From Patescibacteria group bacterium (GTDB lineage: Bacteria > Patescibacteriota > Minisyncoccia > Phycocordibacterales > WO2-35-19): 64,000 nt of DNA. A program made the position numbers and the translations under genes. Shown in pieces: positions 3,565 to 63,467 of the stretch. The notes under the pieces are model-generated. The model saw only the letters and a program-made list of their open reading frames with translations. It did no database searches and was not told the DNA's origin. Location: NCBI GenBank assembly GCA_038064735.1, contig JBBTSI010000011.1, forward strand, positions 1,768 to 65,767, written 5' to 3'. Position 1 is the first letter of the stretch; every line of letters starts with the position of its first letter.

Positions 3565-4455
3565 TTATTTTGTCAAAGTTTTAGAAATCAGATGCGTTAG
3601 AAATTCTCTGATGTTTCCACCTGTGGCCTCCAAAGACTTCATGAAAGGAAAACTATGTGAAAGTTTTGGCAGAGTGTTAGTTTCCAATATAAAAAGGCCT
3701 CGTTTGGGATGCAAAATAAAATCAGATCCGGAATAATGTCTTAAACCCAAAATTTGGTGTGCTAAAATTGCCGTTTCTTGAATTTGTATCTTTTCTTCAT
3801 TACTAAAATTCCCAATCGGTAGAGGAGTATAATATTTTTGACCTCTAAAATCTTCGATAACTCCGCAAGCTACTTCCTTACCTTCGATATATTCTTCCAC
3901 CAAAAGCTCAGCTGAATGTTCAAAAGATTTTTCTAGAGCTTCTTTTATATCTAAAATTTTGCCAACAAAAGAAAAACCCAAAGAAGAACCTGAATTCAGC
4001 GGTTTGATAATAATAGGAAAAGGCAAACTCTCGTTAATTTTGCCAACTAAATTTTTTTCATCTCTATTTATGACAATATGATGCGGAGTTTTAAGACCTT
4101 GACGATTGAAAATTTCTTTCGTCATTTTTTTGTTCATACTGAGAGCCGAAGCTATGGAATTAGAGCCAGTATAAGGAACATGAAAATGCTCAAGGATTTT
4201 TTGAACTGTGCCATCTTCACCATAAGCGCCGTGCATAGCGTTTATCGCTACGTCAATAGTCTTCAAAATATCGTAAGGATTTTTTTGCAAACCTCTAGCG
4301 TGCCACTCACCATCTTTGGAAATAAAAATATCTAACGGCTCATATTCTTCTGGCAAATTGGCTAACACCGCCCCGCCGGTTTTTAAAGACACATCATATT
4401 CGGGTGATGGCCCGCCACGCAAAACTCCTACTCTGATTTTATGAGAAAACGACAT
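3565..4455 (-). CDS. ddl: D-alanine--D-alanine ligase.
   Basis: Matches are RVGVLRGGPSPEYDVSLKTG, HGAYGEDGTVQ, and an ATP-grasp region EYIEGKEVACGVIED ... LETNTLP. Confidence 0.85.
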   Translation of the reverse strand: MSFSHKIRVGVLRGGPSPEYDVSLKTGGAVLANLPEEYEPLDIFISKDGEWHARGLQKNPYDILKTIDVAINAMHGAYGEDGTVQKILEHFHVPYTGSNSIASALSMNKKMTKEIFNRQGLKTPHHIVINRDEKNLVGKINESLPFPIIIKPLNSGSSLGFSFVGKILDIKEALEKSFEHSAELLVEEYIEGKEVACGVIEDFRGQKYYTPLPIGNFSNEEKIQIQETAILAHQILGLRHYSGSDFILHPKRGLFILETNTLPKLSHSFPFMKSLEATGGNIREFLTHLISKTLTK

Positions 4456-8206: not shown

Positions 8207-8690
8207 TAACTATATTCCTAAAATTCAACACAAAATTGGCGTGATAATAATTAAGTAACAATAATCTTTCGATATCGGTCTGTACTGCTATAAGGTCGAA
8301 AATTATAAATAAACCGTTGTAAAAGAAGCTAAATATTTTAATCCAACGGGGAACGAAGTTTAATCAATTTTTAACGGCCCACCAAAGATGTTAGGCACCT
8401 CCAAGTTTGTCCTAGGATTACCCTAAGGCTCGCTTGATAGTTAGCCAAATCTTCGAGGCGATTATGTGTTCGTTAATCCCCGTAATTAATAGCGTAAAAA
8501 CAAATACTATGTGATTAAATCCATAAATTTGCAAAAGAAGCTTCTCCCGAGGCTTCTTTTCGCTGTATCACCCACGCCACCCCGCGAGCAATCAAGGGGA
8601 TTTTCTTTAGTCCCGAGAAGCTTTAGCGAAGTGGGATTTTTTACTAATTCACTGAAATATGTTAATCTAACTTCGTCCAATTAAGAATAT

Positions 8691-8761
8691 TGGGAGGTCG
8701 TCTAACGGCAGGACAGGTGCCTTTGAAGCACTCAATGAAGGTTCGATTCCTTCCCTCCCAG
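8691..8761 (+). tRNA. tRNA-Gln, anticodon UUG.
   Basis: Hand-folded cloverleaf. The acceptor stem is TGGGAGG/CCTCCCA with U1:A72, as is usual for tRNA-Gln. The D arm is gtct/ggac. The anticodon stem is ggtgc/gcact with loop cTTTGaa (U33, anticodon TTG, A37). The T arm is gaagg-TTCGATT-ccttc, and the discriminator is G. Confidence 0.8.
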
Positions 8762-10280: not shown

Positions 10281-10319
10281 CCGTTCGGCACCCCCTGGTG
10301 CCGAACGGCTTTCTTTTTA
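10281..10319 (+). terminator. Intrinsic terminator.
   Basis: ccgttcggcacc-ccct-ggtgccgaacgg forms a 12-bp stem and is followed by CTTTCTTTTT. Confidence 0.55.
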
Positions 10320-14437: not shown

Positions 14438-14438
14438 A

Positions 14439-14474
14439 AAACGGCTCAACGAGTAATCCCGTTGAGCCGTTTTA
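14439..14474 (+). terminator. Intrinsic terminator. Its stem is identical to the hairpin at 46102..46134.
   Basis: aacggctcaacg-agtaatc-cgttgagccgtt followed by TTTATT. Confidence 0.55.
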
Positions 14475-23919: not shown

Positions 23920-24006
23920 GTTGGCAGTAAGGATTTAATTTGTTATAAATAAGCAAGGGGCAAACGTCCCTTGTTTATTTTATTAATGTTAAAAAAGAAA
24001 ATAAAA

Positions 24007-26695: not shown

Positions 26696-26729
26696 AAAAC
26701 AAACTCCCTTTCGAAAGGGAGTTTGTTTT
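26696..26729 (+). terminator. Intrinsic terminator.
   Basis: aaacaaactcccttt-cg-aaagggagtttgttt perfect hairpin followed by TA. Confidence 0.5.
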
Positions 26730-30488: not shown

Positions 30489-30555
30489 ATAACTCACCCC
30501 CAATCTAGACAGAAAGATAACTCACCCCAACCCCTCTCTTACAACAAGAGAGGGG
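30489..30555. repeat. Leader hairpin repeat, copy A: two ATAACTCACCCC boxes plus a perfect 10-bp stem-loop cccctctctt-acaac-aagagagggg.
   Basis: Boxes at 30489-30501 and 30517-30529, hairpin at 30531-30555. Relative to minus-strand pyrD the unit reads hairpin, then GGGGTGAGTTAT, then 19 nt, then ATG. Confidence 0.7.
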
Positions 30556-31690: not shown

Positions 31691-31711
31691 AAAATCTAAA
31701 AGCTCAGCGCT

Positions 31712-31751
31712 CCCTTCTCTTGTTGTAAGAGAAGGGAAGGGGATGAGTTAT
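31712..31751. repeat. Leader hairpin repeat, copy C.
   Basis: cccttctctt-gttgt-aagagaaggg at 31712-31736, then GGGGATGAGTTAT at 31739-31751, which is 3 nt before the ATG at 31755. Confidence 0.7.
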
Positions 31752-35384: not shown

Positions 35385-37526
35385 ATGTTTAGCGATAGAA
35401 AATTTAAAATTAAAAGAGATTTTGAGCCAGCAGGCGACCAACCGCAAGCGATTGAAAAGCTTGTAAATGGTATCAAAACAGGTCTGAAACATCAGACTCT
35501 TTTAGGTGTAACTGGTTCTGGTAAAACCTTCACTGTCGCCAATGTCATAAATGAAATTCAAAAGCCGACTTTGGTCATTGCTCACAACAAAACTTTGGCT
35601 GCCCAGCTCGCCCAAGAGTACAGAGAGTTTTTTCCTCAAAATGCGGTTCATTATTTCGTCTCTTACTACGACTACTATCAACCAGAAGCTTATATGCCAA
35701 TTTCGGATACTTATATAGAGAAAGAAGCGATGATAAATGAAGAGATTGAAAGACTGCGTCATGCTTCCACTCAAGCACTACTTACCCGTAAAGATGTCAT
35801 TATTGTGGCTTCAGTTTCTTGTATTTATGGTCTAGGTTCTCCGATTGAATATGAAAAAGTAAATATGAAAATTGCAAAAGGTGAAAAAATCTCTCGAGCA
35901 GAATTCGTCCGCAAACTTATTGACATTCATTTTGAACGTACCATAGCCGACCTCTCTCCGGGGCAATTCAGAGCCATCGGCAATAAAGTTGAAATTATGC
36001 CCGTTTCGGAAAAAGCTATTTATGAAATCAGTATCGCAGACGGCAAAATTGAAAAAATATTGAAAATAGACGCGATTACCAGAAGTATTTTGGAAGAAGT
36101 GGAAGTATTTTTCCTTTTCCCCGCCAAACATTTCATTTCTACTAAAAAACAAAACGAAAAAGCTTTCAAAACTATCAAAGCCGAGCTCGCACTGCAACTG
36201 AAGAAATTTCAAAAAGAAGGCAAACTTTTGGAAGAAGAACGGCTCAAACGCCGTACCAGTTATGACTTGGCTCTCATCCGCGAGATAGGATATTGCAACG
36301 GTATTGAAAACTATTCCAGACATTTTTCGGGCAAAAAACCTGGTGAAGCACCTGATACTTTACTCTCATATTTTCCCAAAGATTTCTTGACTATCATAGA
36401 TGAGTCCCACGTTTCTGTACCACAAATCGGAGCGATGTATTCCGGAGACGCTTCGCGTAAACAAGCACTGGTAGATTATGGTTTTCGTTTACCAAGTGCC
36501 AAAGATAACCGGCCACTTAAATTTGAAGAATTTGAAGAAAGGGTTGGTCAAGTTATTTATACCAGCGCCACTCCAAGCCATTATGAAGCAGAACACAGTG
36601 AGCAAGTCGTGGAGCAAGTCATCAGACCAACTGGTTTAGTTGATCCAATTGTTGAAGTAAGACCTATTACGGAAAGGAAGATTAGTTCTTCTTCGGCACA
36701 TGTTTCTGAATGCACGGATATTTTCTTGCTAGAAAATTCCTCGTGCTCGGCTCAGTCAGCCTCGCAAGGCATTCATAAACATATACCCTCGAAGAACTTT
36801 TCTGGGCATTACCCTGGTCAAATCGCGGACTTCATAAACGAAGCGGAAAAAAATATAAAAGCTGGTGGCAGAGTCATCGCCACTACGCTGACTAAAAAAA
36901 TGGCCGAAGATTTGAGCGAATACTTGAAAGAAAAAGGTGTCAAAGCTGAATACTTGCACAGTGATATTAAAACCATTGAACGAATTGAAATTTTGACCAA
37001 CTTACGCAAAGGCGAGTTTGATTGTTTAGTTGGAGTCAACCTTTTGCGAGAAGGTCTAGACTTACCTGAAGTAACACTCATCGGGATTTTGGACGCTGAC
37101 AAAGAAGGCTTCCTACGAAGCGACACTTCGCTTATTCAAATCATCGGCCGTGCCGCGCGAAATGTAGATGGCAAAGTTATTTTGTACGCAGACCGGATGA
37201 CCGGTTCAATGGAAAGAGCAATAAGCGAAACTAGCCGCAGACGCGTCAAACAAATCGCTTACAATAAAAAGCACGGTATTACTCCCAAAACTATTATCAA
37301 AAAAATTCAAGACATCACTGACCAACTCAGAAGTGATCATGATAAAGCAGTAGGGGAACTTATCAAAATAGATAAGAATATTTTGATAAAAGAACCTAAA
37401 AAATTAAAGAAACTTATTTCTCAGAAAGAAAAACAAATGGAAGGTGCTGTCAAAATCCTCGACTTTGAAACCGCCGCTCTTTTGCGTGATGAAATTTTGG
37501 AATTACAGAAAATTGGGAAAGTGTGA
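35385..37526 (+). CDS. uvrB: Excinuclease ABC subunit B, carrying a 48-codon in-frame insertion.
   Basis: GDQPQAIEKL, GVTGSGKTFT, helicase motifs, beta-hairpin YYDYYQPEAY, and the C-terminal UVR domain. Confidence 0.9.
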   Translation: MFSDRKFKIKRDFEPAGDQPQAIEKLVNGIKTGLKHQTLLGVTGSGKTFTVANVINEIQKPTLVIAHNKTLAAQLAQEYREFFPQNAVHYFVSYYDYYQPEAYMPISDTYIEKEAMINEEIERLRHASTQALLTRKDVIIVASVSCIYGLGSPIEYEKVNMKIAKGEKISRAEFVRKLIDIHFERTIADLSPGQFRAIGNKVEIMPVSEKAIYEISIADGKIEKILKIDAITRSILEEVEVFFLFPAKHFISTKKQNEKAFKTIKAELALQLKKFQKEGKLLEEERLKRRTSYDLALIREIGYCNGIENYSRHFSGKKPGEAPDTLLSYFPKDFLTIIDESHVSVPQIGAMYSGDASRKQALVDYGFRLPSAKDNRPLKFEEFEERVGQVIYTSATPSHYEAEHSEQVVEQVIRPTGLVDPIVEVRPITERKISSSSAHVSECTDIFLLENSSCSAQSASQGIHKHIPSKNFSGHYPGQIADFINEAEKNIKAGGRVIATTLTKKMAEDLSEYLKEKGVKAEYLHSDIKTIERIEILTNLRKGEFDCLVGVNLLREGLDLPEVTLIGILDADKEGFLRSDTSLIQIIGRAARNVDGKVILYADRMTGSMERAISETSRRRVKQIAYNKKHGITPKTIIKKIQDITDQLRSDHDKAVGELIKIDKNILIKEPKKLKKLISQKEKQMEGAVKILDFETAALLRDEILELQKIGKV
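36672..36815. repeat. In-frame palindromic insertion element (144 nt) within uvrB.
   Basis: Positions 36712-36770 are identical to 40672-40730 in uvrC. The 3' end GAAGAACTTTTCTGGGCA matches the right inverted end of the mnmA element. Excising it restores the canonical UvrB spacing between VEVRPIT and GQIADF. Confidence 0.8.
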
Positions 37527-37603: not shown

Positions 37604-40270
37604 ATGGTTAAAAAAGAAACAACAAAAGAAGATGGAAAATTAATCGTCCGAGGGGCGAGGACACACAACCTTAAGAATATTACAGTTGAGATGCCTCGCA
37701 ATAAGATGATTGCTTTCACGGGACTTTCCGGCTCAGGCAAGTCTTCTTTGGCATTTGATACTATTTTTGCCGAAGGGCAAAGGCGCTATGTGGAGTCGCT
37801 TTCATCTTATGCTCGCCAATTTTTGCGCCAAATGCAAAAACCCGATGTAGATGAAATCGTGGGGCTCAGTCCGGCCATTTCTATTGATCAAAAATCTCGC
37901 TCAAATAATCCACGTTCAACAGTAGCTACTATCACTGAAATATACGATTACCTACGTATACTTTATGCCAGAGTAGGCCACCCGCATTGTTTGGTTTGCG
38001 GTGATGAAATCAAAAAACTTTCAAACGAAGAGATCAAAAATTTTATTTCGGAAAGAATTTCCGAAATTAAAATAAAAAGCGGAAAAAATTCTAATAAAAT
38101 TCAATTGCCGGTTTATGTAGAAATTTTCGCGCCTATCGTGCGTGGCAGGAAAGGCGAATACTATCAATTACTTTATGATCTGCTCGGTAAGGGCTACACT
38201 CATGTTCTTATAGATGGGAAAAAGAAAGCTTTGCGCGAGCAAATTATTTTAACGAAAACCAAAAGACACAATATCGACGTCTTGGTAGACAGTATCAGTA
38301 TGCTCGACTTCATCGGGGATCAAAAAAGCGCCGAAGAAAGGTTGTCGGAAGATTTGGAAAAAGCGCTTGAAGAATCTGAAGGCATGGTCAAAATAATGTT
38401 TAGAGATATGGCGCTCGAAAAAAATAAAGATTATGTGCCAGAAGAAATTTTTATGTCCAATAAACTTTCCTGCCCGAAAGACGGCTATTCATATCCGGAA
38501 GTTGAACCGCGCCTTTTTTCTTTCAACTCACCATATGGCGCTTGCCCTGAATGTAACGGCCTTGGCACTCGCCATTTCTTCGGCGAGGAATCTTGTCCGG
38601 TCTGTAACGGCGCTAGACTCCGACCAGAAGCTTTGCATGTGACTCTTGGCAAGTCGCCTTCGTCAAAGACTTCGGCGGACCAAGGACAAAACATCGTAGA
38701 CCTCACATCAATGTCTATCAAAGACGTTTATGATTTCTTTATTGAACTCAAACTTACCGAAAGGGAAAAAAATATTTCCAAAGTGGTGATGAAAGAAATT
38801 GAATCAAGACTGGAGTTCATGATAAACGTCGGCATTGACTACCTCTCACTTGACCGCAGAGCCCACACTCTCTCGGGTGGTGAAGCTCAGCGCATCCGCC
38901 TAGCCAGCCAACTCGGCTCAGGACTAGTCGGCGCTCTTTATGTGCTTGATGAGCCAACCATCGGCCTCCATTCCCGTGACAATGACCGCTTGGTCAAAAC
39001 TTTGCTCACGCTCCGTGACCTCGGCAATACTATAATAGTGGTGGAACACGACGAAGATACTATCTTTGCTTCGGACTATATCGTTGATATTGGACCAAAG
39101 GCAGGCGTCCATGGCGGTGAAATCGTAGTCTCCGGATATTTGGATGAGCTTCTCACTGCTAAGCAAAACAAATCCGGTTCCGTAACTTTAGATTATTTGC
39201 GTGGAGACAATGTGATAGAAATTCCGGATAAAAGGAGAGGACAAGACAAAGGTTCGCTGCAAATCCGCGGAGGCAAAGTTTTCAATATTAAAAATATGAA
39301 TGTAGATGTACCGCTTGGCAAACTGGTAGCTGTAACCGGTGTTTCCGGTTCGGGCAAATCTTCTTTCGTTTACGAAATTTTGCACAAAAATTTGCAGGCG
39401 CGTTTTGAACGCAAATACCGCAGTGCACAAACTTTCAATTGTGCGTCTTTCACAGGTACAGAATATCTGGGCCGAGCCATTTTGATTGATCAGTCACCGA
39501 TAGGGCGTACGCCGAGGTCCAACCCCGCTACTTATACAGGAAGTTGGACTTTCATCCGCGAACTTTTCGCTGAGACAGCGGAAGCAAGAGCGCGTGGTTG
39601 GAAGGCCAGTCGATTTTCCTTCAACGTAGCAGGCGGGCGCTGTGAAGTTTGCGGTGGTAACGGCGAAATAGAAGTAGAAATGCATTTTTTACCGACCGTT
39701 TATGTGCCTTGCGATGTTTGCCGTGGCAAAAGATTTATGAAAGAAACTTTGGAAGTGAAATACAAAAAGAAAAATATTTACGAAATTTTGGAAATGACAG
39801 TTGAGGAAGCGCTAACCTTTTTTGAAGATATCCCTGCAGTTTATGACAGACTCAAGACGCTCAATGAAGTGGGTCTGGGTTATTTGAAACTCGGACAATC
39901 AGCCACCACCCTTTCCGGTGGGGAAGCACAAAGAGTGAAAATTTCATCGGAGCTTTATCGTCCGCACCTGCAAAAAACTATTTATCTACTTGATGAGCCG
40001 ACCATCGGTCTGCATTATGAAGATGTCAAAAAACTGATAGAAATTTTGCAAAAATTAGTAAACAAGGGAAACACAGTAGTGGTCATTGAACACAATATGG
40101 ATATCATCAAATCCTGCGATTATGTTTTGGATATTGGTCCCGAAGGCGGCGACCTTGGCGGTAACCTCGTCGCCAAAGGCACTCCCGAAGAAATCGCCAA
40201 CAACTCCAAATCTCACACCGGCAAGTATTTAAAGAAAGCATTGAAACAATATGCAGCACATAAAAAATAA
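37604..40270 (+). CDS. uvrA: Excinuclease ABC subunit A (888 aa); the insertion domain appears to be missing.
   Basis: Two ABC modules ([17 protein letters not shown] x2) and Zn modules. CPECNGLG and CPVCNG are only 9 residues apart, against about 125 in E. coli. Confidence 0.9.
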
Positions 40271-41585
40271 AATATCAAAATTGCCGGATGCGCCGGGGGT
40301 GTATTTTTTTCTTCGGGCGCCGAAGCCTAGCGAAGGAGGCAAACCTAAGATTCTTTATATTGGCAAAGCGACTTCGCTAAGAAGTAGGGTGAAGAGTTAT
40401 TTCAATGGAAGAATTGAAGAAACTCGAGGACCGCTGATTTCCAAAATGCTCAGCGAATTTACTGATATTAAATTCCAAAAAACCGATTCGGTTTTGGAAG
40501 CGCTCATTTTGGAAGCTAACCTCATCAAAAAGCACCAGCCCGAAGCCAACACTGACGAAAAAGACGACAAAAGTTTTAATTATGTAGTTATCACTAAAGA
40601 AGATTGGCCGAGAGTTTTAGTTATGCGAGAGAAAGAACTTCGAACTTTTTTTTCACCACATTCTTCGAAAAGCACGGATATTTTCTTGCTAGAAAATTCC
40701 TCGTGCTCGGCTCAGTCAGCCTCGCAAGGCTTTTCTCAGAACGATGGTTCAAAAAAGTTTTCAATCTCTAAAACTTTCGGACCATTTACAAACGGCGCAC
40801 AGCTCAAAGAAGCGATGAAAATCGTCCGCAAGATTTTCCCATTTAGGGATAAATGTGAAATAGGGCAAAAAAGAGCATGTTTCAATCGCCAAATCGGACT
40901 TTGTTCTGGAGTTTGTACTGGTGAAATATCCAAAAAAGATTACGGAAAGCAAATCAAAAATATTGTTTTGTTTTTTGAGGGTAAGAAAAAAGCTTTGATA
41001 AAAAATTTGGAAAAGCAGATGAAAGCATTCTCTAATTCGCGCGAATATGAGAATGCGGGAAAAATAAAAAGGCAGATTTTTGCCCTTTATCATATCCAAG
41101 ATGTCTCACTGATAAAAAGTGAAAATATAATAAATCTAAATTCAAACCAAACATTCAGAATTGAAAGCTACGATATAGCACACCTCTCGGGCACTAATGT
41201 AGTAGGAGCAATGACTGTGGTAGAAAATGGAGAAATTAAAAAAACAGATTACCGCAAATTCAAAATCAGAAGTGCGACAATCGACGACACCAAAGCCCTC
41301 TCTGAAGTTTTAGCTCGTAGATTAAATCATTCCGAATGGCCGATGCCTGATTTAATAGTAGTCGATGGGGGAGAAGCTCAAAAACGAGCCGTAGAAAAAG
41401 TTTTAAAAATCAATTCAAAAAACATTCCGGTCGTCTCTGTCGTTAAAGACGAAAGACATAAACCAAAAGATATTTTAGGAGATAAAAAATGGCTAAAGCA
41501 GGAAACCGAAATACTTCTAGCTAATGCCGAAGCCCACCGCTTTGCCATAAGCTTCCACAGGAATCTCCGTCGAAAGTTGTCTTAA
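40251..41585 (+). CDS. uvrC: Excinuclease ABC subunit C (444 aa), lacking the (HhH)2 tail and carrying an in-frame repeat insertion.
   Basis: GIY-YIG GVYFF ... ILYIGKA, the UVR domain, and an RNase-H-like endonuclease domain. Overlaps the uvrA end by 20 nt. Confidence 0.85.
   Translation: MQHIKNKISKLPDAPGVYFFLRAPKPSEGGKPKILYIGKATSLRSRVKSYFNGRIEETRGPLISKMLSEFTDIKFQKTDSVLEALILEANLIKKHQPEANTDEKDDKSFNYVVITKEDWPRVLVMREKELRTFFSPHSSKSTDIFLLENSSCSAQSASQGFSQNDGSKKFSISKTFGPFTNGAQLKEAMKIVRKIFPFRDKCEIGQKRACFNRQIGLCSGVCTGEISKKDYGKQIKNIVLFFEGKKKALIKNLEKQMKAFSNSREYENAGKIKRQIFALYHIQDVSLIKSENIINLNSNQTFRIESYDIAHLSGTNVVGAMTVVENGEIKKTDYRKFKIRSATIDDTKALSEVLARRLNHSEWPMPDLIVVDGGEAQKRAVEKVLKINSKNIPVVSVVKDERHKPKDILGDKKWLKQETEILLANAEAHRFAISFHRNLRRKLS
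40656..40740. repeat. In-frame palindromic insertion element within uvrC.
   Basis: A 59-nt core identical to the uvrB copy, with ends CGAAAAGC and GCTTTTCT. It encodes PHSSKSTDIFLLENSSCSAQSASQG in the variable linker after the GIY-YIG domain. Confidence 0.75.
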
Positions 41586-44040: not shown

Positions 44041-45045
44041 ATGTCATTAAGTATAGGAATCGTCGGTTTGCCAAACGTGGGGAAATCCACACTCTTTAAC
44101 GCACTTACGAAAAAAAGCGTACCAGCGGAAAATTACCCATTTTGCACCATTGACCCATCAGTAGGTATTATCCCCGTGCCAGACGAAAGACTAGAACGGC
44201 TAAACGCGTTTAGCCGTTCGGCCAAAAAAATCCCCGCCGTAGTGGAATTCGTAGATATCGCCGGACTAGTGCGTGGCGCCTCAAAAGGGGAGGGTAAGGG
44301 CAACCAATTCCTCACAGCTATCAAAGAATGCGATGCTATCGCCGAGGTGGTGCGCGTTTTTGACGACCCGGAAGTTTTACATGTCGAAGGAAAAATTGAT
44401 CCGCTCTCGGATATTGAAACCATAAATCTTGAACTCATTTTGAAAGATATGGAGACGGTGACCAAGCGTCTCGGCAGTTTGGAAAAAGAAGTGAGGGCCG
44501 GAAAGAAAGAAGCTCTGCTTGAAAAAAGCGGTTTGGAGCAAATCTTCAAAGCTTTGGAAGCGGAAAAAATGGCCTCCTCTGTTTTCAACGAGCTGGACGA
44601 ATTCGAAAAACCTTTCGTGAAAAATTTGCAACTCCTGACTATGAAGCCGGTACTTTATGTTTTGAACACTTCCGAAGCTGGTGAAAACAAAGTTGATATA
44701 AAAGAAAGGATTCCTGGACCATACGTTGAAGTAGATCCCATTTTTGAAAAAGGCCTCACTGACCTCATCACCAAAGCTTACGAAACGCTCGACCTCATTA
44801 CTTACTTCACGACCGGCGAGGACGAAACTCGAGGTTGGACTATTCTGAGAGACTCCACTGCACCCGTCGCCGGCATGGCCATCCACACAGACTTCCGCGA
44901 CAAATTCATCCGCGCTGAAGTCATAGAATGGGACAAACTCCTATTAGCTGGCTCTTACGCCACCGCTCGTGAACGTGGCCTCCTCCGCACCGAAGGCAAA
45001 ACTTACATCGTCAAAGACGGGGATGTCATAGAATTCAAAATCTAA
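44041..45045 (+). CDS. ychF: Redox-regulated ATPase YchF (Obg-like).
   Basis: IGIVGLPNVGKSTLFNALT, and the C-terminal TGS domain TEGKTYIVKDGDVIEFKI. Confidence 0.85.
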   Translation: MSLSIGIVGLPNVGKSTLFNALTKKSVPAENYPFCTIDPSVGIIPVPDERLERLNAFSRSAKKIPAVVEFVDIAGLVRGASKGEGKGNQFLTAIKECDAIAEVVRVFDDPEVLHVEGKIDPLSDIETINLELILKDMETVTKRLGSLEKEVRAGKKEALLEKSGLEQIFKALEAEKMASSVFNELDEFEKPFVKNLQLLTMKPVLYVLNTSEAGENKVDIKERIPGPYVEVDPIFEKGLTDLITKAYETLDLITYFTTGEDETRGWTILRDSTAPVAGMAIHTDFRDKFIRAEVIEWDKLLLAGSYATARERGLLRTEGKTYIVKDGDVIEFKI

Positions 45046-45135: not shown

Positions 45136-46071
45136 ATGGAAAATAAAGCATCAGCGAAAGACTTCTTCCTCCACCTTGGAGCTATCGTGGGACTTTACAC
45201 TGTCACGATAAGTTTTATAAATCTGCTTTTCAAAGTTATCAACAAAGCTTTCCCGGAAGTAACTTCAAATATTTATTCTTGGGGCGGAGGTTCGGAAATC
45301 AGTTTACCAATAGCCACCCTTATTATCTTTTTCCCTATTTTCGTTTTTCTTTCACAAATGGTCCACAAAATTTATATTGAAAATCCGGCGAAAAAAGATT
45401 TGGCTATCAGGAAGTGGCTGACTTATATCACGCTCTTCGTAGCCGGTATTGCTTTAGCGGCAGACTTGGTAACAGTTCTTTACAAATTTTTGGACGGCCA
45501 AGATTTGACCGCCGCATTTTTACTCAAAGCTCTCACGGTACTTTTGGTAGCTGGAATAATTTTTTGGTTTTACATTCAAGACATCCGCGATAAAGTTTCC
45601 GCCGGCAGTAGGAAAATTTGGAGTATGGGTGTCGGTCTAATAATTTTAGTTGCTATCATTTTAGGATTTTCCGTACTTGGTTCTCCTCAAAGCCAAAGAC
45701 TGGTCAGATATGATGCTCAAAAAATTACCGATCTCCAAAATATCCAATATCAAGTGATAAGCTACTGGCAAACAAACGGCAAATTGCCGACAAGTTTGAG
45801 TGATGTGGCCTCATCTGATCAATACAATATCATTCCCAAAGATCCCCAAACTCAAACCACTTACGAATATCAAAAAACTGATGTGATGACTTTCAACCTC
45901 TGTGCCGAATTCAATAAAGAAAATCTAAATGTTCAAAATTTTGGTGACTTTGGACCTGTTTATGGCAAAGGTGAAATAATTCAAAACACCAACTGGAACC
46001 ACAGTGCCGGTCGCCAATGCTTCACTCGTGTCATCGACCCAGTAGCTTATCCAACTCAGGTGAGGGGATAG
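45136..46071 (+). CDS. Membrane protein, hypothetical (4-5 TM plus a C-terminal soluble domain).
   Basis: 311-aa intact ORF with no identifiable catalytic motif. Confidence 0.45.
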   Translation: MENKASAKDFFLHLGAIVGLYTVTISFINLLFKVINKAFPEVTSNIYSWGGGSEISLPIATLIIFFPIFVFLSQMVHKIYIENPAKKDLAIRKWLTYITLFVAGIALAADLVTVLYKFLDGQDLTAAFLLKALTVLLVAGIIFWFYIQDIRDKVSAGSRKIWSMGVGLIILVAIILGFSVLGSPQSQRLVRYDAQKITDLQNIQYQVISYWQTNGKLPTSLSDVASSDQYNIIPKDPQTQTTYEYQKTDVMTFNLCAEFNKENLNVQNFGDFGPVYGKGEIIQNTNWNHSAGRQCFTRVIDPVAYPTQVRG

Positions 46072-46101
46072 TTTTAAATTTCTAATTGACCTAATTGCTC
46101 T

Positions 46102-46134
46102 AAACGGCTCAACGACAACTATCGTTGAGCCGTT
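46102..46134 (+). terminator. Terminator hairpin sharing an identical 12-bp stem with 14439..14474.
   Basis: aacggctcaacg-acaactat-cgttgagccgtt, then CGGGTTTTTGTTG. Confidence 0.5.
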
Positions 46135-46159
46135 CGGGTTTTTGTTGTATATTATATTT

Positions 46160-48496
46160 ATGCAACCATACGACCCAGCCAAAATTGAAAAAAAGTGGCA
46201 AGCAGTTTGGGAGAAGAAAAAAGTCTTTCAGGCGCAAGATAGTGGCAAAAAACCTAAATACTACATATTAGATATGTTTCCATATCCTTCAGGAGAAGGT
46301 CTCCATGTAGGCCACCCCAAAGGTTATATCGCGACAGATGTAATGTCTCGTGCCAAAAGAATGCAAGGATTCAACGTCCTACATCCGATGGGTTTTGACG
46401 CATTCGGTCTGCCTGCTGAAAATTATGCTATCGCAACTAAAACTAACCCGGATGTTGCTGTAAAAAAGAATGTTGCCAGATTTAAAAAACAACTCGAGAT
46501 TATCGGTCTTGATTATGATTGGTCGCGAGAAATAAATACTACTGACCCCAAATATTATAAATGGACTCAATGGATTTTCCTCAAACTTTTAGAAAAAGGT
46601 TTGGCATATGAATCAAACGAGCCTGTCAACTGGTGTCCTAAAGATAAAACTGTTTTATCTAACGAAGATGTAGAAAACGGCAAATGCGAAAGATGTGGCA
46701 CTGTCGTAGAAAAAAAACCAATGCGACAATGGGTTTTGAAAATTACAGCTTACGCCGACCAAATGTTAAAAGATCTTGATTTGCTCGATTGGCCAGAAGC
46801 TATCAAAGAAAGTCAGAGAAATTGGATAGGGAAGTCAGAAGGGGCGGAAGTAGATTTCAAAATGAAAAACAGAACTGAAGTAATAAAAGTATTCACAACC
46901 AGAATAGATACTTTAATGGGTGCTACTTATGTCGTACTGGCACCAGAACATGAATTGATTTCAAAATTAAAACCTCAGATTGAAAATTGGGAAGAGATAG
47001 AAAAATACAGACAAGAAGTAAAGAAAAAAACTGAAATAGAAAGAACTAACGAAGAAAAAGAAAAAACCGGAGCGAAAATCAAAGGAGTGAAAGCGGTCAA
47101 TCCTGCAAACGGAGAAGAAATCCCAATCTGGATAGCAGATTATGTCCTAAATAATTATGGAACGGGAGCTATAATGGCTGTACCATCACACGATGAGAGA
47201 GATTTGGCTTTTGCTAAAAAATACAATTTACCAATAAAAGAAATCACTCTTGATTGGAGCCTTTTAGAAAAATTTGGGAAAAAAGTAGTGAAATTTAAAT
47301 TGCGGGATTGGGTTTTTAGCAGACAGAGATACTGGGGCGAGCCAATACCAGTTTTACATGACGGCGAAAATATTGTGCCTTTATCAGAAAAAGATTTACC
47401 ACTTGAATTACCAAAAGTAAAATCATATGAACCATCTGGGACGGGAGAATCACCTCTCGCAAACATTTCAAAATGGGTCAATATTAAAATCGGCAAAGGT
47501 AAAAATGCAAAAATGATGAGGAGGGAAACAAACACCATGCCACAGTGGGCAGGATCTTCTTGGTATTACCTTCGTTATATGGACCCAAAAAACAATAAAG
47601 CATTGGTTGATTCAAAAAAAGAAAAATACTGGAACTCTGTTGATATGTATGTTGGTGGCGCAGAACATGCAACCAGACATCTTATATATGCAAGATTTTG
47701 GCATAAATTTCTTTTTGATATTGGAGTAGTTTCCACCAAAGAGCCTTTCAAAAAATTACAAAGTGTAGGGCTCATAATGGGAGCGGACGGAAGAAAGATG
47801 TCAAAAAGATTTGGTAACGTCATAAATCCTGACAACATCATTAAAACTTTTGGCGCCGACACTCTGCGTGTTTACGAAATGTTCATGGGACCGTTTGACC
47901 AGGCGATACCTTGGGGTGAAGACAATATTATTGGTGTCAGAAGATTCCTTGAGAGAGTTTGGAAATTGCAATTCAAGATTTCTAAAACTGCCAAAGCCAG
48001 TGAAAAGTTTGAAACTTTACTACATAAAACTATCAAAAAAGTTGGGGAAGATATTGAGTCTATGAGCTTCAACACGGCTATTTCTAGTATGATGATTTTG
48101 ACCAACGAAATGGATAAACAAAAAGAAATTTCCAAAGAAGATTTTGGAGCATTTTTGAAGATTCTCTCGCCATTTGCCCCTCATATCGCCGAAGAAATTT
48201 GGGCAAATTTAGGCAACCCCACTTCGCAAAAGCTTCGCGGGACAGGTAAAGCCCTCATTGCAACCGAAAGTTGGCCGGAGTTTGATAAAAACAAGATTAT
48301 TGAAGACAAAACAAATATCGTAGTTCAAATAAATGGAAAGGTCCGCGCCCAGTTTGAAGCTGAGATTGGTATTTCTGAATCGGAGGCTAAAAATAAAGCT
48401 ATTTCTATGCCAGAGGTTCAAAAATGGTTAGAAGGAAAGGAAGTAAAAAAGGTGATTTTCGTACCCAACAAAATCATTAATTTCGTGGTATTGTAA
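46160..48496 (+). CDS. leuS: Leucine--tRNA ligase.
   Basis: PYPSGEGLHVGHPKGY (HIGH), the CP1 editing domain, and KMSKRFGN (KMSKS). Confidence 0.9.
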   Translation: MQPYDPAKIEKKWQAVWEKKKVFQAQDSGKKPKYYILDMFPYPSGEGLHVGHPKGYIATDVMSRAKRMQGFNVLHPMGFDAFGLPAENYAIATKTNPDVAVKKNVARFKKQLEIIGLDYDWSREINTTDPKYYKWTQWIFLKLLEKGLAYESNEPVNWCPKDKTVLSNEDVENGKCERCGTVVEKKPMRQWVLKITAYADQMLKDLDLLDWPEAIKESQRNWIGKSEGAEVDFKMKNRTEVIKVFTTRIDTLMGATYVVLAPEHELISKLKPQIENWEEIEKYRQEVKKKTEIERTNEEKEKTGAKIKGVKAVNPANGEEIPIWIADYVLNNYGTGAIMAVPSHDERDLAFAKKYNLPIKEITLDWSLLEKFGKKVVKFKLRDWVFSRQRYWGEPIPVLHDGENIVPLSEKDLPLELPKVKSYEPSGTGESPLANISKWVNIKIGKGKNAKMMRRETNTMPQWAGSSWYYLRYMDPKNNKALVDSKKEKYWNSVDMYVGGAEHATRHLIYARFWHKFLFDIGVVSTKEPFKKLQSVGLIMGADGRKMSKRFGNVINPDNIIKTFGADTLRVYEMFMGPFDQAIPWGEDNIIGVRRFLERVWKLQFKISKTAKASEKFETLLHKTIKKVGEDIESMSFNTAISSMMILTNEMDKQKEISKEDFGAFLKILSPFAPHIAEEIWANLGNPTSQKLRGTGKALIATESWPEFDKNKIIEDKTNIVVQINGKVRAQFEAEIGISESEAKNKAISMPEVQKWLEGKEVKKVIFVPNKIINFVVL

Positions 48497-52030: not shown

Positions 52031-53239
52031 ATGAAAAAAGTGAATATAATTCATCCTGAGAAAAGTCGAATGGTATTTGTGGGATTATCTGGAGGTGTAG
52101 ACAGCGCTGTAAGTGCCGCTTTACTCAAAAAAGACGGTTTCAATGTGACCGGAGTTTTTATCAAAGCTTGGACTCCCGAGGGTTATCCTTGCACTTGGAA
52201 AGAAGACAGGCGAAGCGCGATGAAAGTAGCGGCTATTTTGGATATTCCTTTTATCACACTTGATTTGGAAAAAGAATACAAAAAAGAAGTAGTGGACTAT
52301 ATGATCGCTGAATACAAAACCGGACGAACACCAAACCCCGATGTGATGTGTAACAAAGAAATCAAGTTTGGTCATTTCTTAAAATTCGCCCTAAAAAATG
52401 GTGCCAATTTCGTAGCCACGGGACACTACGCACAAATATCACACTCAAAGTTGCCCAGAAAAGTTCTCGAGAAAAGTCTGGCCTGTGCAACAAGGAGACC
52501 CGAGGACTTTTCAGAGAGAAGCTTTTCTGGGCAACTTTTAGAAGGAAAAGACAAAAATAAAGACCAGAGTTATTTTTTATGGACTCTTACTCAAGAACAA
52601 CTTAAACATATTTTATTTCCAATTGGTGGTTTACAAAAATCTGAAGTCAGAAAACTGGCAGACAAATTTGGTTTGCCTCAAGCTACTCGCAAAGATAGCC
52701 AAGGACTCTGTTTTCTCGGCAAAGTGGATATGAAAGAATTTTTGTCACGTTATATGCCACCCCAAAAAGGAAACGTAATAAACGAAAATGAGGAAATTAT
52801 CGGCACACATAACGGCGCTTTATTTTTTACTATCGGTGAACGCCATGGCTTCACCATCACCAAAAAATCTGAAAAAGAAGAACCTCTATATGTTACCGCT
52901 AAAAATATTGAAAAAAATACCATCATGGTTGCTTCCATCGCCAGAAAAAAATTGCCCCTGAAAAAGTCCTCGGGTCTCCTCGCTGAAGCTCGGCCAGACT
53001 TTTCCATTGACAATTTTCTTTCTGGCTGCAGTTCTGTGTTTTTAAAAGATATAAATATTACAGAGAAAATACCAAACAAAAACCTGACTTGCCGTATCAG
53101 ATACAGACAAGAAAAAATCGGATGTAAAATGGATAGAGATAAAGTAACTTTTAACAAATCCCAAATGGGAGTGGCTCCAGGCCAATCTCTAGTTTTATAT
53201 CAAGATGAAGTTTGTTTAGGTGGTGGTATAATAAAATAA
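52031..53239 (+). CDS. mnmA: tRNA-specific 2-thiouridylase MnmA, carrying two in-frame repeat insertions.
   Basis: PP-loop GLSGGVDSAV, TGRTPNPDVMCNKEIKF, KDQSYFLW, and C-terminal PGQSLVLYQDEVCLGGGII. Confidence 0.85.
   Translation: MKKVNIIHPEKSRMVFVGLSGGVDSAVSAALLKKDGFNVTGVFIKAWTPEGYPCTWKEDRRSAMKVAAILDIPFITLDLEKEYKKEVVDYMIAEYKTGRTPNPDVMCNKEIKFGHFLKFALKNGANFVATGHYAQISHSKLPRKVLEKSLACATRRPEDFSERSFSGQLLEGKDKNKDQSYFLWTLTQEQLKHILFPIGGLQKSEVRKLADKFGLPQATRKDSQGLCFLGKVDMKEFLSRYMPPQKGNVINENEEIIGTHNGALFFTIGERHGFTITKKSEKEEPLYVTAKNIEKNTIMVASIARKKLPLKKSSGLLAEARPDFSIDNFLSGCSSVFLKDINITEKIPNKNLTCRIRYRQEKIGCKMDRDKVTFNKSQMGVAPGQSLVLYQDEVCLGGGIIK
52451..52534. repeat. 84-nt palindromic element with 13-bp terminal inverted repeats, inserted in frame in mnmA.
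   Basis: TTGCCCAGAAAAG ... CTTTTCTGGGCAA flank a nested inner palindrome GAAAAGTC ... GACTTTTC. It encodes LPRKVLEKSLACATRRPEDFSERSFSGQ. Excision restores E. coli-like spacing between GHY and LLEGKDKNKDQSYF. Confidence 0.8.
52951..53004. repeat. 54-nt truncated copy of the same element in inverted orientation, also in frame in mnmA.
   Basis: Its reverse complement aligns with the inner part of 52451..52534, sharing GAAAAGTCTGGCC ... GGAGACCCGAGGACTTTT. Confidence 0.7.
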
Positions 53240-63356: not shown

Positions 63357-63373
63357 GCTCTCAATCAACTTTA

Positions 63374-63402
63374 AAAAACCTCGGCTCAACCCGAGGTTTT
63401 TT
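63374..63402 (+). terminator. Intrinsic terminator after the ribosomal operon.
   Basis: cctcgg-ctcaac-ccgagg followed by TTTTTT. Confidence 0.55.
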
Positions 63403-63467
63403 AATATCAAAAAATGCAATTTTATGGTATAATAGACTTATAACTTTTATAAACTAACCCTAAAACC

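What the first reader, a model, noticed from the sequence alone, without database searches (positions are those of the whole stretch)
52451..53004. mnmA carries two in-frame copies of a related palindromic element in opposite orientations
The 84-nt copy (52451-52534) has perfect 13-bp terminal inverted repeats (TTGCCCAGAAAAG / CTTTTCTGGGCAA) and a nested inner palindrome (GAAAAGTC ... GACTTTTC). It is exactly 28 codons, adding LPRKVLEKSLACATRRPEDFSERSFSGQ between the GHY motif and LLEGKDKNKDQSYF, and excising it restores E. coli-like spacing. A 54-nt truncated copy (52951-53004) in reverse orientation is inserted about 420 bp downstream. Its reverse complement aligns with the inner part of the first (GAAAAGTCTGGCC ... 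GGAGACCCGAGGACTTTT). The right TIR also appears at the 3' end of the uvrB insert (GAAGAACTTTTCTGGGCA). So three genes within 17 kb carry four in-frame members of one element family, all with lengths divisible by three. This suggests strong selection on insert length and that the proteins stay functional with the added loops.
Basis: seen in the sequence. Interest (0 to 1): 0.8.

Follow-up and report, generated by a model that had tools for sequence, protein, structure and literature searches.

The report
Protein-coding hairpin repeats in Patescibacteria genes
The tRNA-modification gene mnmA of this uncultured Patescibacteria (CPR) bacterium carries two full copies, in opposite orientations, of an ~87-base hairpin-forming repeat that is read through as extra protein loops, and the same repeat sits in frame in many housekeeping genes of related bacteria, much like the "selfish DNA in genes" of Rickettsia but built differently.

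Summary
Copy 1 (52451-52534) is as described. Copy 2 is not a 54-nt fragment but a full 87-nt hairpin (52940-53026, reverse strand). Both belong to one family, here called R1, with three parts:
- an invariant asymmetric core, GAAAAGTCTGG-CC[apical hairpin]GG-AGAY-CCGAG-GACTTTT;
- a covarying apical stem;
- a 13-20 bp outer stem that differs between copies but always pairs with itself.

A core pattern found 31 further copies in Paceibacteria-type genomes. About 20 lie in frame in polA, recG, uvrA, uvrB, pnp, ileS, rnr, recJ, tgt, rseP, prmC and mnmA, in both orientations and five reading phases. The rest lie between genes, and none splits a gene.

MnmA orthologues show presence, absence and inversion at both sites. 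The inserts are 90-94% identical between species whose mnmA is about 74% identical.

The uvrB and uvrC inserts have a different core (family D2). The uvrB insert is nested inside an R1-type outer stem.

Best reading: an RPE-like selfish hairpin repeat that survives only where it stays translatable. The way it moves is unknown. I found no description of this for CPR bacteria. It is a new variant of a known kind.

The parts
52031..53239 (+). mnmA (tRNA 2-thiouridine(34) synthase), 402 aa, the host gene of both copies
   Evidence: It is 100% identical to P0001, named 'MAG: tRNA 2-thiouridine(34) synthase MnmA [Patescibacteria group bacterium]'. Pfam domains: HUP 14-231, PRC barrel 235-301, C-terminal barrel 346-401. 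PDB MnmA hits reach E = 2e-80. The AF2 model matches 2hma/2deu with TM 0.77-0.82.
52447..52538 (+). R1 copy 1, forward orientation. It is the 84-nt element 52451-52534 with a 13-bp perfect outer stem; the palindrome extends to 17 bp. It encodes LPRKVLEKSLACATRRPEDFSERSFSGQ inside the HUP domain.
   Evidence: (-46.4 kcal/mol, z = -6.3), and 50 (68 bits; the copy was in the model's seed).
52471..52511 (+). Conserved core of copy 1: GAAAAGTCTGGCC-[apical loop]-GGAGACCCGAGGACTTTT
52940..53026 (-). R1 copy 2, reverse orientation, full length at 87 nt (29 codons). It encodes ARKKLPLKKSSGLLAEARPDFSIDNFLSG at the junction of the PRC barrel and the C-terminal barrel.
   Evidence: (element strand -40.5 kcal/mol, z = -4.5; mRNA strand -31.2), and (77.1 bits; the copy was in the model's seed).
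52962..53004 (-). Conserved core of copy 2
   Evidence: reverse-strand coordinates converted to plus-strand.
36684..36809 (+). Composite insert in uvrB (CDS 35385-37526). A degenerate R1-type outer stem (36684-36696 and 36785-36809) encloses a D2 element: D2 outer stem 36697-36713 and 36769-36784, D2 core 36714-36768.
   Evidence: (z = -5.3). A relative (L011) has an R1 copy at the same uvrB position.
40645..40757 (+). D2 element in uvrC (CDS 40251-41585), with core at 40674-40728

Best explanation
The two mnmA inserts are copies of a non-autonomous, hairpin-shaped DNA repeat family (R1, about 77-91 nt). The family is dispersed in the genomes of Paceibacteria-type Patescibacteria.

Anatomy (shown):
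- P1 is an outer stem of 13-20 bp. Its sequence is copy-specific but always self-complementary.
- A small internal loop follows.
- P2 is an invariant stem, GAAAAGUCU/GGACUUUUY plus GG/CC. It has two bulges (GA and AGAY) on the 3' strand and an invariant G.U (G.T) wobble.
- P3 is CC..GG plus a covarying apical stem-loop.

Fate of copies:
- Copies land, or are created, throughout the genome (inferred).
- Purifying selection leaves only two kinds. One kind lies in intergenic spacers. The other keeps the reading frame, has no stop codon, and falls in permissive loops or domain linkers of proteins (shown as a pattern).
- In mnmA the hairpins are therefore transcribed and translated (inferred, not shown). 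That adds a loop of about 28 aa inside the HUP domain and a loop of about 29 aa between the PRC barrel and the C-terminal barrel, leaving the catalytic motifs intact.

How copies change afterwards (shown by comparison):
- compensatory change in the stems;
- inversion in place or re-insertion in the other orientation;
- partial deletion;
- nested insertion of other hairpins;
- patchwise replacement of the core.

Mobility (inferred): the invariant asymmetric core is most likely the recognition module of a trans-acting, structure-specific DNA enzyme that acts on the folded strand. That enzyme has not been identified.

In kind this is the Rickettsia palindromic element (RPE) phenomenon in a second, unrelated reduced-genome lineage. 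The architecture is different.
For: Family and structure:
- A core pattern taken from the two window copies found 31 true copies in other genomes, nearly all Adlerbacteria, Ryanbacteria, Zambryskibacteria or Parcubacteria MAGs, with up to 4 per genome.
- Flanks pair within a copy but not between copies: duplex energy -26.7 kcal/mol for own flanks against -12.6 +/- 4.9 for flanks of other copies.
- On 21 copies, 86.3% of cells are paired against 71.4% in shuffles. There are 115 double-change cells against 38.6, with 0 of 500 shuffles reaching either value. Slid controls give 34-60%.

Coding context:
- In-frame hosts are PolA (3 genomes), RecG (3), UvrB, UvrA, Tgt, RNase R, RseP, PNPase, IleRS, RecJ, PrmC and MnmA. 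Both orientations occur (about 6 forward and 8 reverse loci) and five of six phases are used.
- The remaining copies lie between complete genes, and no copy splits a gene.
- Clean hairpin lengths that I read off the folds for clearly intergenic copies are 77, 82 and 89 nt, none a multiple of three. So the element itself carries no multiple-of-three rule. Many spans overshoot the hairpin.
- Stop codons are depleted. Copy 1 has 5 of 6 frames open (P = 0.002), copy 2 has 4 of 6 (P = 0.015), and the core has 6 of 6 (P = 0.037).

mnmA orthologues:
- Site 1 is occupied in the window, L001, L003 and L006 and empty in L002 and L004. Site 2 is occupied in reverse orientation in the window and L004, forward in L005, and empty elsewhere.
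- Copy 2 is 90% identical to the reverse complement of the L005 copy and 46% identical when compared directly.
- P0004 keeps only 'NFSG' at site 1, which looks like a deletion remnant.
- L003 has a 30-nt GC hairpin nested in the core.
- Among 120 homologues, R1 occurs in 9 at site 1. At site 2 it occurs in three different configurations, scattered over the tree.

The gene stays functional:
- The PP-loop and both catalytic Cys motifs are invariant.
- The AF2 model is MnmA-like. Insert 1 is modelled as an extended beta-arm (pLDDT 61-69) and insert 2 as a low-confidence loop.

Other:
- Two copies in one genome (L013 and L024) share P1 with one compensatory pair, so whole elements are duplicated.
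- No Rfam family matches.
Against: - No transposase or other partner enzyme was identified.
- No target-site duplication is seen in the one young pair.
- Copy number per genome appears low: 2 in 64 kb here, and at most 4 exact-core copies per representative genome.
- After insertion a purely selfish element should decay at the neutral rate. Yet orthologous inserts are much better conserved than the host gene. Site 1 is 92-94% identical (third codon positions 86-93%) against 74-76% (third positions 50-53%). Site 2 is 90% against 71%. The change is sharp at the element ends.
- The uvrA and uvrB copies of L011 share core and apical loop but have unrelated P1 stems. L042 and L056 share P1 but carry different D2 core variants. 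So the core and the outer stem do not always travel together. Simple cut-or-copy transposition of the whole element does not explain that.
- Translation of the inserts is inferred only from frame and stop-codon statistics.
Confidence: 0.6

Rival explanations
1. Host-selected nucleic-acid signal. Under this reading the hairpins are kept because the folded DNA or RNA does something for the cell. It could be a binding or processing site for a conserved protein, a translation-pausing structure at domain boundaries, an mRNA stabiliser or terminator when intergenic, or a recombination or uptake signal. The protein loops would then be a tolerated by-product.
For: - Nucleotide conservation of orthologous inserts far exceeds that of the host gene, including third codon positions (86-93% against about 50%). 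The boundaries are sharp.
- The bulges and a G.U wobble are invariant in 21 of 21 copies.
- Strong covariation keeps P1 and P3 paired.
- Intergenic copies sit directly after stop codons or between convergent genes.
- Many genic copies lie at domain junctions, for example between the MnmA PRC barrel and C-terminal barrel.
Against: - Both orientations occur in coding strands about equally, and opposite orientations occur at the same mnmA site. A strand-specific mRNA signal is therefore unlikely.
- The mRNA-sense fold of copy 2 is clearly weaker than that of its complement (-31.2 against -40.5 kcal/mol).
- Presence is patchy among close orthologues, and many lack any insert. It is therefore not needed for the gene.
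- Different unrelated hairpin families occupy the same loops.
Confidence: 0.2
2. Homing-like or site-directed spread. Under this reading the same hairpin is repeatedly delivered to the same positions of orthologous genes in different species, or into pre-existing hairpins. The route could be structure- or sequence-directed insertion, or short-patch gene conversion after DNA uptake. Occupied sites would then be younger than the species split.
For: - Inserts are 90-94% identical in genes whose synonymous sites are saturated, with sharp boundaries.
- The apical loop at site 1 is identical in three species.
- L001 and L003 come from the same metagenome.
- Site 2 carries the element in forward orientation, reverse orientation and reverse in another phase in different lineages.
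- Hairpins are nested in hairpins: L003, and uvrB with D2 inside an R1 stem.
- Cores are shared between neighbouring copies whose P1 stems are unrelated (L011 uvrA/uvrB). Cores are also swapped at one locus (L042/L056).
- 'Empty' site-2 alleles in L001, L002 and L006 are themselves perfect 8-12 bp hairpins.
Against: - No endonuclease or recombinase has been linked to the elements.
- The outermost 13 bp of P1 at site 1 differ between species about as much as the host gene does, with compensatory pairs. That fits vertical descent.
- In RecG orthologues P1 has diverged about as much as the gene.
- Selection for permissive loops alone predicts recurrent use of the same sites.
Confidence: 0.12
3. 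RNA-level removal. Under this reading the hairpins are intron-like and are cut out of the transcript, for example by a helix-specific endonuclease plus a ligase. The protein would then be unaffected.
For: - The elements form very stable, well-defined helices with conserved bulges.
- From my own knowledge, CPR bacteria are known for insertions in rRNA genes that are absent from the mature rRNA.
Against: - All of about 20 genic copies keep the frame and lack stops in the frame used. No genic copy breaks an ORF.
- If the elements were spliced out there would be no such constraint. By my rough estimate, about 1 in 4 copies would pass by chance.
- Both orientations occur in mRNA.
- Both bulges lie on the same strand, so there is no bulge-helix-bulge motif.
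- No intron or ribozyme family matches in Rfam.
Confidence: 0.04
4. Local origin. Under this reading the palindromes arose on the spot by template-switch (quasi-palindrome) mutation and are not related by transposition.
For: - Outer stems are copy-specific and perfectly compensated.
- Small perfect hairpins occur at 'empty' sites.
- Palindromes are known to be created and corrected by template switching (established knowledge).
Against: - A core of 40-odd nt with invariant unpaired bases is shared by more than 30 loci in unrelated genes and different candidate orders. It cannot arise independently each time.
- Template switching may still shape the outer stems.
Confidence: 0.04

Closest known systems
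Rickettsia palindromic elements (RPE; Ogata et al. 2000 Science, 2002 Genome Res; summarised in PMC10969869)
   Same: Both are dispersed palindromic repeats in a reduced genome. Many copies are inserted in frame in unrelated housekeeping genes without destroying them. Both also occur between genes, encode an extra peptide segment, and have no known transposase.
   Different: - The host phylum is unrelated (Patescibacteria/CPR, not Rickettsiales).
- R1 is shorter: about 77-91 nt against about 100-150 nt.
- In R1 the conserved part is an inner asymmetric core, and the outer stems are copy-specific and covary.
- Five reading phases are used, so there is no single conserved peptide.
- Orthologous copies are better conserved than the host gene.
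- No sequence comparison with RPE consensus sequences was possible here.
MITEs with intragenic in-frame copies (ERIC, Correia, BOX, cyanobacterial MITEs; review PMC10969869)
   Same: They are small, non-coding, hairpin-forming, dispersed, and occasionally fused in frame to host ORFs.
   Different: MITEs are defined by conserved terminal inverted repeats and target-site duplications inherited from a parent IS. R1 and D2 have variable termini, no duplication in the one informative pair, and no identified parent IS.
REP/BIME elements and their RAYT (Y1/HUH) transposases; hairpin ends of IS200/IS605
   Same: Recognition is presumed to be of a folded single-strand hairpin with unpaired or bulged bases rather than of terminal repeats. 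No target duplication is made. Stems covary.
   Different: REPs are 20-40 nt, carry a conserved GTAG or CGTC head, are extragenic almost by definition, and occur in hundreds of copies (PMC3733652). R1 is about 87 nt, mostly genic in this sample, and low in copy number. No RAYT or TnpA was looked for or found.
Mobile GC clusters and coding palindromes of organelle genomes (yeast mitochondrial GC clusters; Volvox organelle palindromes PMC2670323; Nematomorpha coding palindromes PMC6649704)
   Same: These are GC-richer palindromic elements that invade AT-rich compact genomes, including protein-coding sequence, with hairpins nested in hairpins.
   Different: They occur in organelles rather than free bacterial genomes and have different sequences. 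In Nematomorpha the palindrome arms encode conserved parts of the protein itself rather than an added loop.

Membership tests
Rickettsia palindromic elements (RPE) | Dispersed repeat family with palindromic (hairpin-forming) sequence | tested here: met
   There are 2 copies in the window and 31 in other genomes. Fold z-scores are -3.6 to -6.9 and covariation is strong.
Rickettsia palindromic elements (RPE) | Frequent in-frame insertion in unrelated protein-coding genes that stay intact | tested here: met
   About 20 in-frame genic copies lie in 12 or more different housekeeping genes, and none splits a gene.
Rickettsia palindromic elements (RPE) | Sequence homology to RPE-1 to RPE-10 consensus; host in Rickettsia | tested here: not met
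   The host is a Patescibacteria MAG and all hits are Patescibacteria. So R1 is an analogue of RPEs and not a member of the family.
Rickettsia palindromic elements (RPE) | Insert retained in mRNA and protein | not testable with these tools
   There is only indirect support from frame and stop-codon statistics.
MITE | Conserved terminal inverted repeats shared by all copies (matching a parent IS) | tested here: not met
   Outer stems are copy-specific. Mean gapless identity of left flanks is 0.39, and cross-copy duplex energy is -12.6 against -26.7 kcal/mol for a copy's own flanks. The conserved part is internal.
MITE | Target-site duplication flanking the element | tested here: inconclusive
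   The one young paralogous pair (L013/L024) has no direct repeat at its ends. Filled and empty orthologues are too diverged to read the junctions.
MITE | Small (50-500 nt), no ORF of its own, multiple copies | tested here: met
   Elements are 77-91 nt with several copies per genome.
REP / BIME (RAYT-associated) | 20-40 nt imperfect palindrome with a conserved GTAG or CGTC head, extragenic location | tested here: not met
   R1 is about 87 nt. No conserved tetranucleotide lies at the foot of P1. About two thirds of copies are intragenic.
REP / BIME (RAYT-associated) | Cognate RAYT / Y1 transposase gene in the genome | not tested
   Only 8-kb loci and one 64-kb window were available, and no scan for Y1/HUH genes was made.
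Intein | Hint-domain splicing blocks, at least about 130 aa, nucleophile at both junctions | tested here: not met
   The inserts are 28-29 aa, are read in different phases in different genes, and show no Pfam hit beyond the MnmA domains.
Self-splicing or endonuclease-spliced intron (group I/II, bulge-helix-bulge) | Ribozyme core or bulge-helix-bulge motif, and no requirement for an open frame | tested here: not met
   No Rfam match. Both bulges lie on one strand. All genic copies are open and in frame.
MnmA (host gene) | PP-loop SGGxDS, catalytic Cys pair, and HUP + PRC-barrel + C-terminal barrel architecture | tested here: met
   The motifs are invariant across 26 and 92 orthologues. The Pfam architecture is as expected. 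PDB hits reach E = 2e-80 and Foldseek gives TM 0.77-0.82 to 2hma/2deu.

The most novel reading that the evidence does not exclude
The hairpins may not be passive junk. They could be a previously unrecognised kind of structure-defined genetic element in CPR bacteria. In this reading a short invariant core with fixed bulges is actively maintained or repeatedly re-delivered to the same loops of orthologous housekeeping genes. The route would be homing-like insertion, or insertion into the apex of existing hairpins, by an unknown structure-specific enzyme. That would explain four things: the conservation far above the synonymous background, the flips in orientation at one site, the nesting, and the independent turnover of core and outer stem.
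Probability: 0.25. Interest if true: 0.85.

Novelty: new variant of a known kind. Interest (0 to 1): 0.7.

Why it matters
[quoted passage not shown] This result shows the same outcome in an unrelated, very large and uncultured radiation. At least two element families are involved, in core genes of DNA repair, replication and translation.

Practical consequences:
- It explains many of the odd length differences and low-complexity loops in CPR proteins.
- It affects gene calling, orthology, alignment and structure prediction for these genomes.
- It provides natural maps of insertion-tolerant loops in enzymes such as MnmA, UvrB, PolA and RecG.

Open questions it raises:
- The elements have an invariant bulged core with freely covarying stems.
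- Their conservation exceeds that of the host genes.
- Either an unknown structure-specific DNA enzyme or a host function remains to be found.
- The elements offer a tractable case for how palindromes persist and evolve inside coding sequence.

Tried and rejected
- Rfam. The mnmA region at E <= 10, the whole window at gathering thresholds, and the uvrB insert at E <= 10 gave only sub-threshold generic hairpin or microRNA hits and one tRNA at 8691-8761.
- Split genes. Split leuS and ATP-cone/Mrr genes in L003 and L004 were checked as possible frame-breaking inserts. They are an assembly gap (a run of N) and ordinary frameshifts or stops, not hairpins.
- First AF2 model, from 26 sequences. It was too poor to use (pLDDT 53). 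The second, from 92 sequences, was usable.
- P0004, the best candidate for a near-empty site 1. Its DNA could not be fetched.
- One hit from each collection scan set was chance. L019 (Acidobacteriales) has no flank pairing. L053 and L055 are GC-rich genes.
- Viral contigs. There were no matches for either core.
- Pre-existing hairpin at the empty uvrA site. The window's uvrA site that corresponds to the L011 uvrA insert shows only a weak, non-significant fold (z = -1.9).
- Hammerhead or kink-turn reading of the cores, by eye. The consensus nucleotides are absent.
- Literature. Five searches found no description of in-frame palindromic repeats in CPR, Patescibacteria or Parcubacteria.
- Replication-strand bias. 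The two window copies lie 500 bp apart in opposite orientations, so there is no strict bias.
Full report
**Source and gene**

The window is from a Patescibacteria (CPR) metagenome-assembled genome. The ORF 52031-53239 is 100% identical to a protein that NCBI names MnmA of a 'Patescibacteria group bacterium'. It has the MnmA Pfam architecture: HUP domain 14-231, PRC barrel 235-301 and C-terminal barrel 346-401. It matches solved MnmA structures at E = 2e-80. In that comparison the protein falls into three aligned blocks.

**Checking the observation**

- The sequence at 52451-52534 is as described: 84 nt, perfect 13-nt terminal inverted repeats, an inner GAAAAGTC/GACTTTTC palindrome, and 28 codons in frame.
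- The palindrome actually extends to 17 bp (52447-52538).
- It folds at -46.4 kcal/mol, z = -6.3.
- The second copy was under-called. Aligning its reverse complement with copy 1 and folding it shows a complete 87-nt hairpin at 52940-53026 with its own outer stem. It is 29 codons long.

**Anatomy of the family (R1)**

I took the two blocks shared by both copies as a pattern (GAAAAGTCTGGCC, a gap of 10-40 nt, GAGGACTTTT) and scanned one genome per bacterial species. This gave 32 loci, of which 31 are real. Nearly all are in Adlerbacteria, Ryanbacteria, Zambryskibacteria, Parcubacteria or Paceibacterota MAGs, with up to four per genome.

In every copy the conserved part is the inside:
- P2 is GAAAAGUCU/GGACUUUUY plus GG/CC. 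It has two bulges, GA and AGAY, on the 3' strand and an invariant U.G wobble.
- P3 is CC..GG plus an apical stem-loop that covaries.
- P1 is the outer stem of 13-20 bp. It differs from copy to copy but is complementary within each copy.

Evidence for the pairing:
- Own flanks pair at -26.7 kcal/mol on average. Flanks taken from different copies pair at -12.6 +/- 4.9.
- On 21 aligned copies, 86.3% of cells are paired against 71.4% in shuffles. There are 115 double-sided changes against 38.6. No shuffle in 500 reaches either value. Sliding the partner by 1-3 columns drops pairing to 34-60%.

This is the reverse of a MITE, where the termini are conserved.

A covariance model built from these copies hits only the two mnmA copies in the 64-kb window, at 77 and 68 bits. 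Both copies were in the model's seed, so these scores are partly by construction. Nothing else scores above generic terminator hairpins. Rfam has no matching family.

**Coding context**

About 20 of the copies lie inside long ORFs of recognisable housekeeping proteins and keep the frame. The hosts are:
- PolA in three genomes and RecG in three genomes, at the same position in each;
- UvrB, at the same position as the window's uvrB insert;
- UvrA, Tgt, RNase R, RseP, PNPase, IleRS, RecJ, PrmC and MnmA.

Both orientations occur about equally, and five of the six reading phases are used in real genes.

The remaining copies lie between complete genes. Examples are scpA|scpB, ruvX|next gene, upstream of pth, and between convergent genes. 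No copy splits a gene.

Intergenic copies whose folds give a clean hairpin (77, 82 and 89 nt, read off) are not multiples of three. So the in-frame property of genic copies comes from survival and is not built into the element.

R1 is depleted in stop codons in all frames. Copy 1 has 5 of 6 frames open (P = 0.002), copy 2 has 4 of 6 (P = 0.015), and the core has 6 of 6 (P = 0.037).

**Orthologue comparison in mnmA**

Syntenic loci (yceG-mnmA-ATP-cone/Mrr) from six relatives were fetched and aligned by codons.

| Site | Occupied | Empty or other | Length, occupied vs empty |
|---|---|---|---|
| 1 | window, L001, L003, L006 (same position, orientation and phase) | empty in L002 and L004; an unrelated insert in L005 | 135 vs 63 nt |
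| 2 | reverse in window and L004; forward in L005 | L001, L002, L003, L006 | 141 vs 75-81 nt |

- The window copy at site 2 is 90% identical to the reverse complement of the L005 copy and 46% identical when compared directly.
- Net gains are 24 and 20 codons, not 28 and 29. Part of each ancestral loop is therefore gone. 'Excision restores the spacing' holds only approximately.
- Among orthologous site-1 copies the outer stem shows compensatory pairs: T-A to C-G, G-C to A-T, C-G to A-T.
- L003 carries a 30-nt GC-rich hairpin nested in the core.
- P0004 keeps only 'NFSG' at site 1, which looks like a deletion remnant.
- Three of the four 'empty' site-2 alleles are themselves perfect 8-12 bp hairpins of unrelated sequence.
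- In a survey of 120 homologues, the site-1 linker ranges from 8 to 56 aa. R1 is present in 9, the ancestral length of 12-13 aa in 21, and other inserts in about 63.
- At site 2, R1 occurs forward (6), reverse (4) and reverse in another phase (4). These are scattered over a neighbour-joining tree.
- Both positions are therefore hot spots that have been hit, lost and re-hit many times.

**An unexpected result**

Orthologous inserts are much better conserved at the DNA level than the gene around them.

| Comparison | Insert identity | Insert, 3rd positions | Rest of gene | Rest, 3rd positions |
|---|---|---|---|---|
| Site 1: window vs L001, L003 | 92-93% | 86-93% | 74-76% | 50-53% |
| Site 2: window vs L004 | 90% | 93% | 71% | 53% |

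- The drop at the element ends is sharp.
- RecG and PolA sets show the same trend, 85-86% against 65-70%. There the core is biased by the way the copies were found.
- Within site 1, the outermost 13 bp differ about as much as the host gene. The inner 58 nt or so are almost invariant.
- A purely selfish insert should decay after fixation. So one of three things holds: the folded sequence is under selection, the inner part is repeatedly renewed by conversion or re-insertion, or the copies are younger than the species split.
- The core and the outer stem can turn over separately. The uvrA and uvrB copies of L011 share core and apical loop but have unrelated P1. L042 and L056 share P1 but carry different D2 core variants. 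In contrast, L013 and L024, from one genome, share the whole element with one compensatory pair and no target duplication.

**The uvrB and uvrC inserts**

- They share a different core of about 55 nt. It is 100% identical between the two and folds as a three-way junction. The R1 model does not detect it.
- A metagenome scan found 23 true copies of this family (D2). The build is the same as for R1: a conserved core with private outer stems, -23.0 kcal/mol for own flanks against -7.3 +/- 4.3 across copies.
- Its genic copies all use one orientation and phase (..TDIFLLENSSCSAQSASQG..).
- The window's uvrB insert is a composite. A D2 element with its own stem sits inside a degenerate R1-type outer stem. 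The right arm of that stem, CTCGAAGAACTTTTCTGGGCA, nearly equals the complement of the left arm of mnmA copy 1.
- A relative (L011) has an intact R1 at exactly that uvrB position.

**Effect on the protein**

- The PP-loop and both catalytic cysteine motifs are invariant across orthologues with and without inserts.
- An AlphaFold model from 92 sequences (pLDDT 71.6) matches MnmA crystal structures with TM 0.77-0.82.
- Insert 1 is modelled as a lengthened two-stranded beta-arm in the HUP domain (pLDDT 61-69).
- Insert 2 is a low-confidence loop at the junction of the PRC barrel and the C-terminal barrel (pLDDT about 48-57).
- Distance to the tRNA-binding surface was not measured.

**Interpretation**

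The best-supported explanation is an RPE-like, non-autonomous hairpin repeat that is tolerated only between genes or as an in-frame, stop-free loop in permissive parts of proteins. The inserts are read through.

Shown:
- the dispersed family;
- the structure and its covariation;
- the frame pattern;
- presence, absence and inversion among orthologues;
- nesting;
- the intact host gene.

Inferred:
- translation of the inserts;
- DNA-level mobility;
- a trans-acting enzyme that recognises the bulged core.

Rivals:
- A host-selected DNA or RNA signal. This is favoured by the conservation. It is disfavoured by the lack of orientation preference and by the patchy presence.
- Homing-like re-delivery. 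This is favoured by the conservation, the orientation flips and the nesting. No enzyme is known.
- RNA-level excision. This is disfavoured by the universal open frame.
- Purely local template-switch origin. This is excluded as the sole cause by the shared core.

**Comparison with what is known**

- The closest analogue is the Rickettsia palindromic element (Ogata et al. 2000 and 2002; review PMC10969869).
- R1 and D2 are not members of that family. The host is different and no homology was shown.
- They fail the MITE definition, because the termini are variable and no duplication was seen.
- They fail the REP definition on size, on the lack of a GTAG head, and on being mostly genic.
- Organelle GC clusters and coding palindromes (PMC2670323, PMC6649704) are more distant analogues.
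- Five full-text searches found no report of such elements in CPR, Patescibacteria or Parcubacteria. This is absence of evidence within the searchable library only.

**Verdict**

This is a real feature and not an artefact. It is a new variant of a known kind. Interest is 0.7.

Noticed in passing
window 36684-36809 (uvrB) and 40645-40757 (uvrC); loci L039-L063: A second family of in-frame hairpin repeats (D2). It has a conserved core of about 55 nt that folds as a three-way junction, with copy-specific outer stems. Its genic copies all read ..TDIFLLENSSCSAQSASQG... I found 23 copies in metagenomes. One of them (L058, in a 546-aa ORF from an assembly labelled Hain-H43, possibly the window's own sample) repeats the nested composite seen in uvrB.
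   Followed up: partly
window 26107-26145 (in ORF 23953-26682), 48215-48243 (in ORF 46064-48493), 8601-8639 (next to tRNA 8691-8761): A third, short GC-rich repeat, roughly CTTCGC(A/T)AAAGCT(T/A)CG(C/G)GGGACA. It lies in frame in two large ORFs, read as ..SSSAKATAGQ.. and ..NPTSQKLRGTG... Similar peptides (LRQSFAGQ, FDSAQGKP) appear as small inserts in MnmA orthologues P0022 and P0009.
   Followed up: no
MnmA orthologues P0001-P0120, site 1 (after GHYA) and site 2 (after NTITVA): Both loops are insertion hot spots across the family. The site-1 linker ranges from 8 to 56 aa with many unrelated inserts (for example P0007/P0033, P0027, P0046, P0023/P0044). Further small inserts occur at other positions (P0008/P0044 LLAPYSFSGAG; P0027; P0033/P0023 LPAGKAGD).
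   Followed up: partly
L001 10881-10908, L002 5851-5875, L006 10983-11001 (mnmA site 2, 'empty' alleles): Three of the four orthologues that lack R1 at site 2 carry their own perfect 8-12 bp hairpin of unrelated sequence at the same spot (z = -2.2 to -3.0). These could be remnants of older elements or locally generated palindromes.
   Followed up: partly
L011 2452-2549 (uvrA) and 3812-3909 (uvrB): Adjacent genes of one relative each carry an in-frame R1 copy. The two copies have nearly the same core and apical loop but unrelated outer stems. The window's uvrA (37604-40270) is empty at that position.
   Followed up: partly
L003 6386-6504: A 30-nt GC-rich mini-hairpin (CCCGCCCGCCTTGACGGCATGTCGGGCAGG) is nested inside the R1 core of mnmA site 1, still in frame (PPALTACRAG).
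   Followed up: no
window 14438-14473, 44194-44219, 46103-46134: A small family of terminator-like perfect hairpins sharing AACGGCTCAACG...CGTTGAGCCGTT. Other strong intergenic hairpins lie at 10281-10308, 26696-26729, 63371-63404, 30531-30555 and 31711-31737.
   Followed up: no
L042 and L056: These are apparently orthologous intergenic D2 copies with the same outer stem. They carry two different variants of the inner sub-hairpin, GGATAAAATTCTGCTGAATTTTTCC and GGATATTTTCTTGCTAGAAAATTCC. This suggests patchwise replacement of the core rather than point mutation.
   Followed up: no
L003 1720-1730 and 7540-7560; L004 5419-5477: Apparent split leuS and ATP-cone/Mrr genes in relatives are due to an assembly gap (a run of N) and simple frameshifts or stops. 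They are not caused by hairpin inserts.
   Followed up: yes
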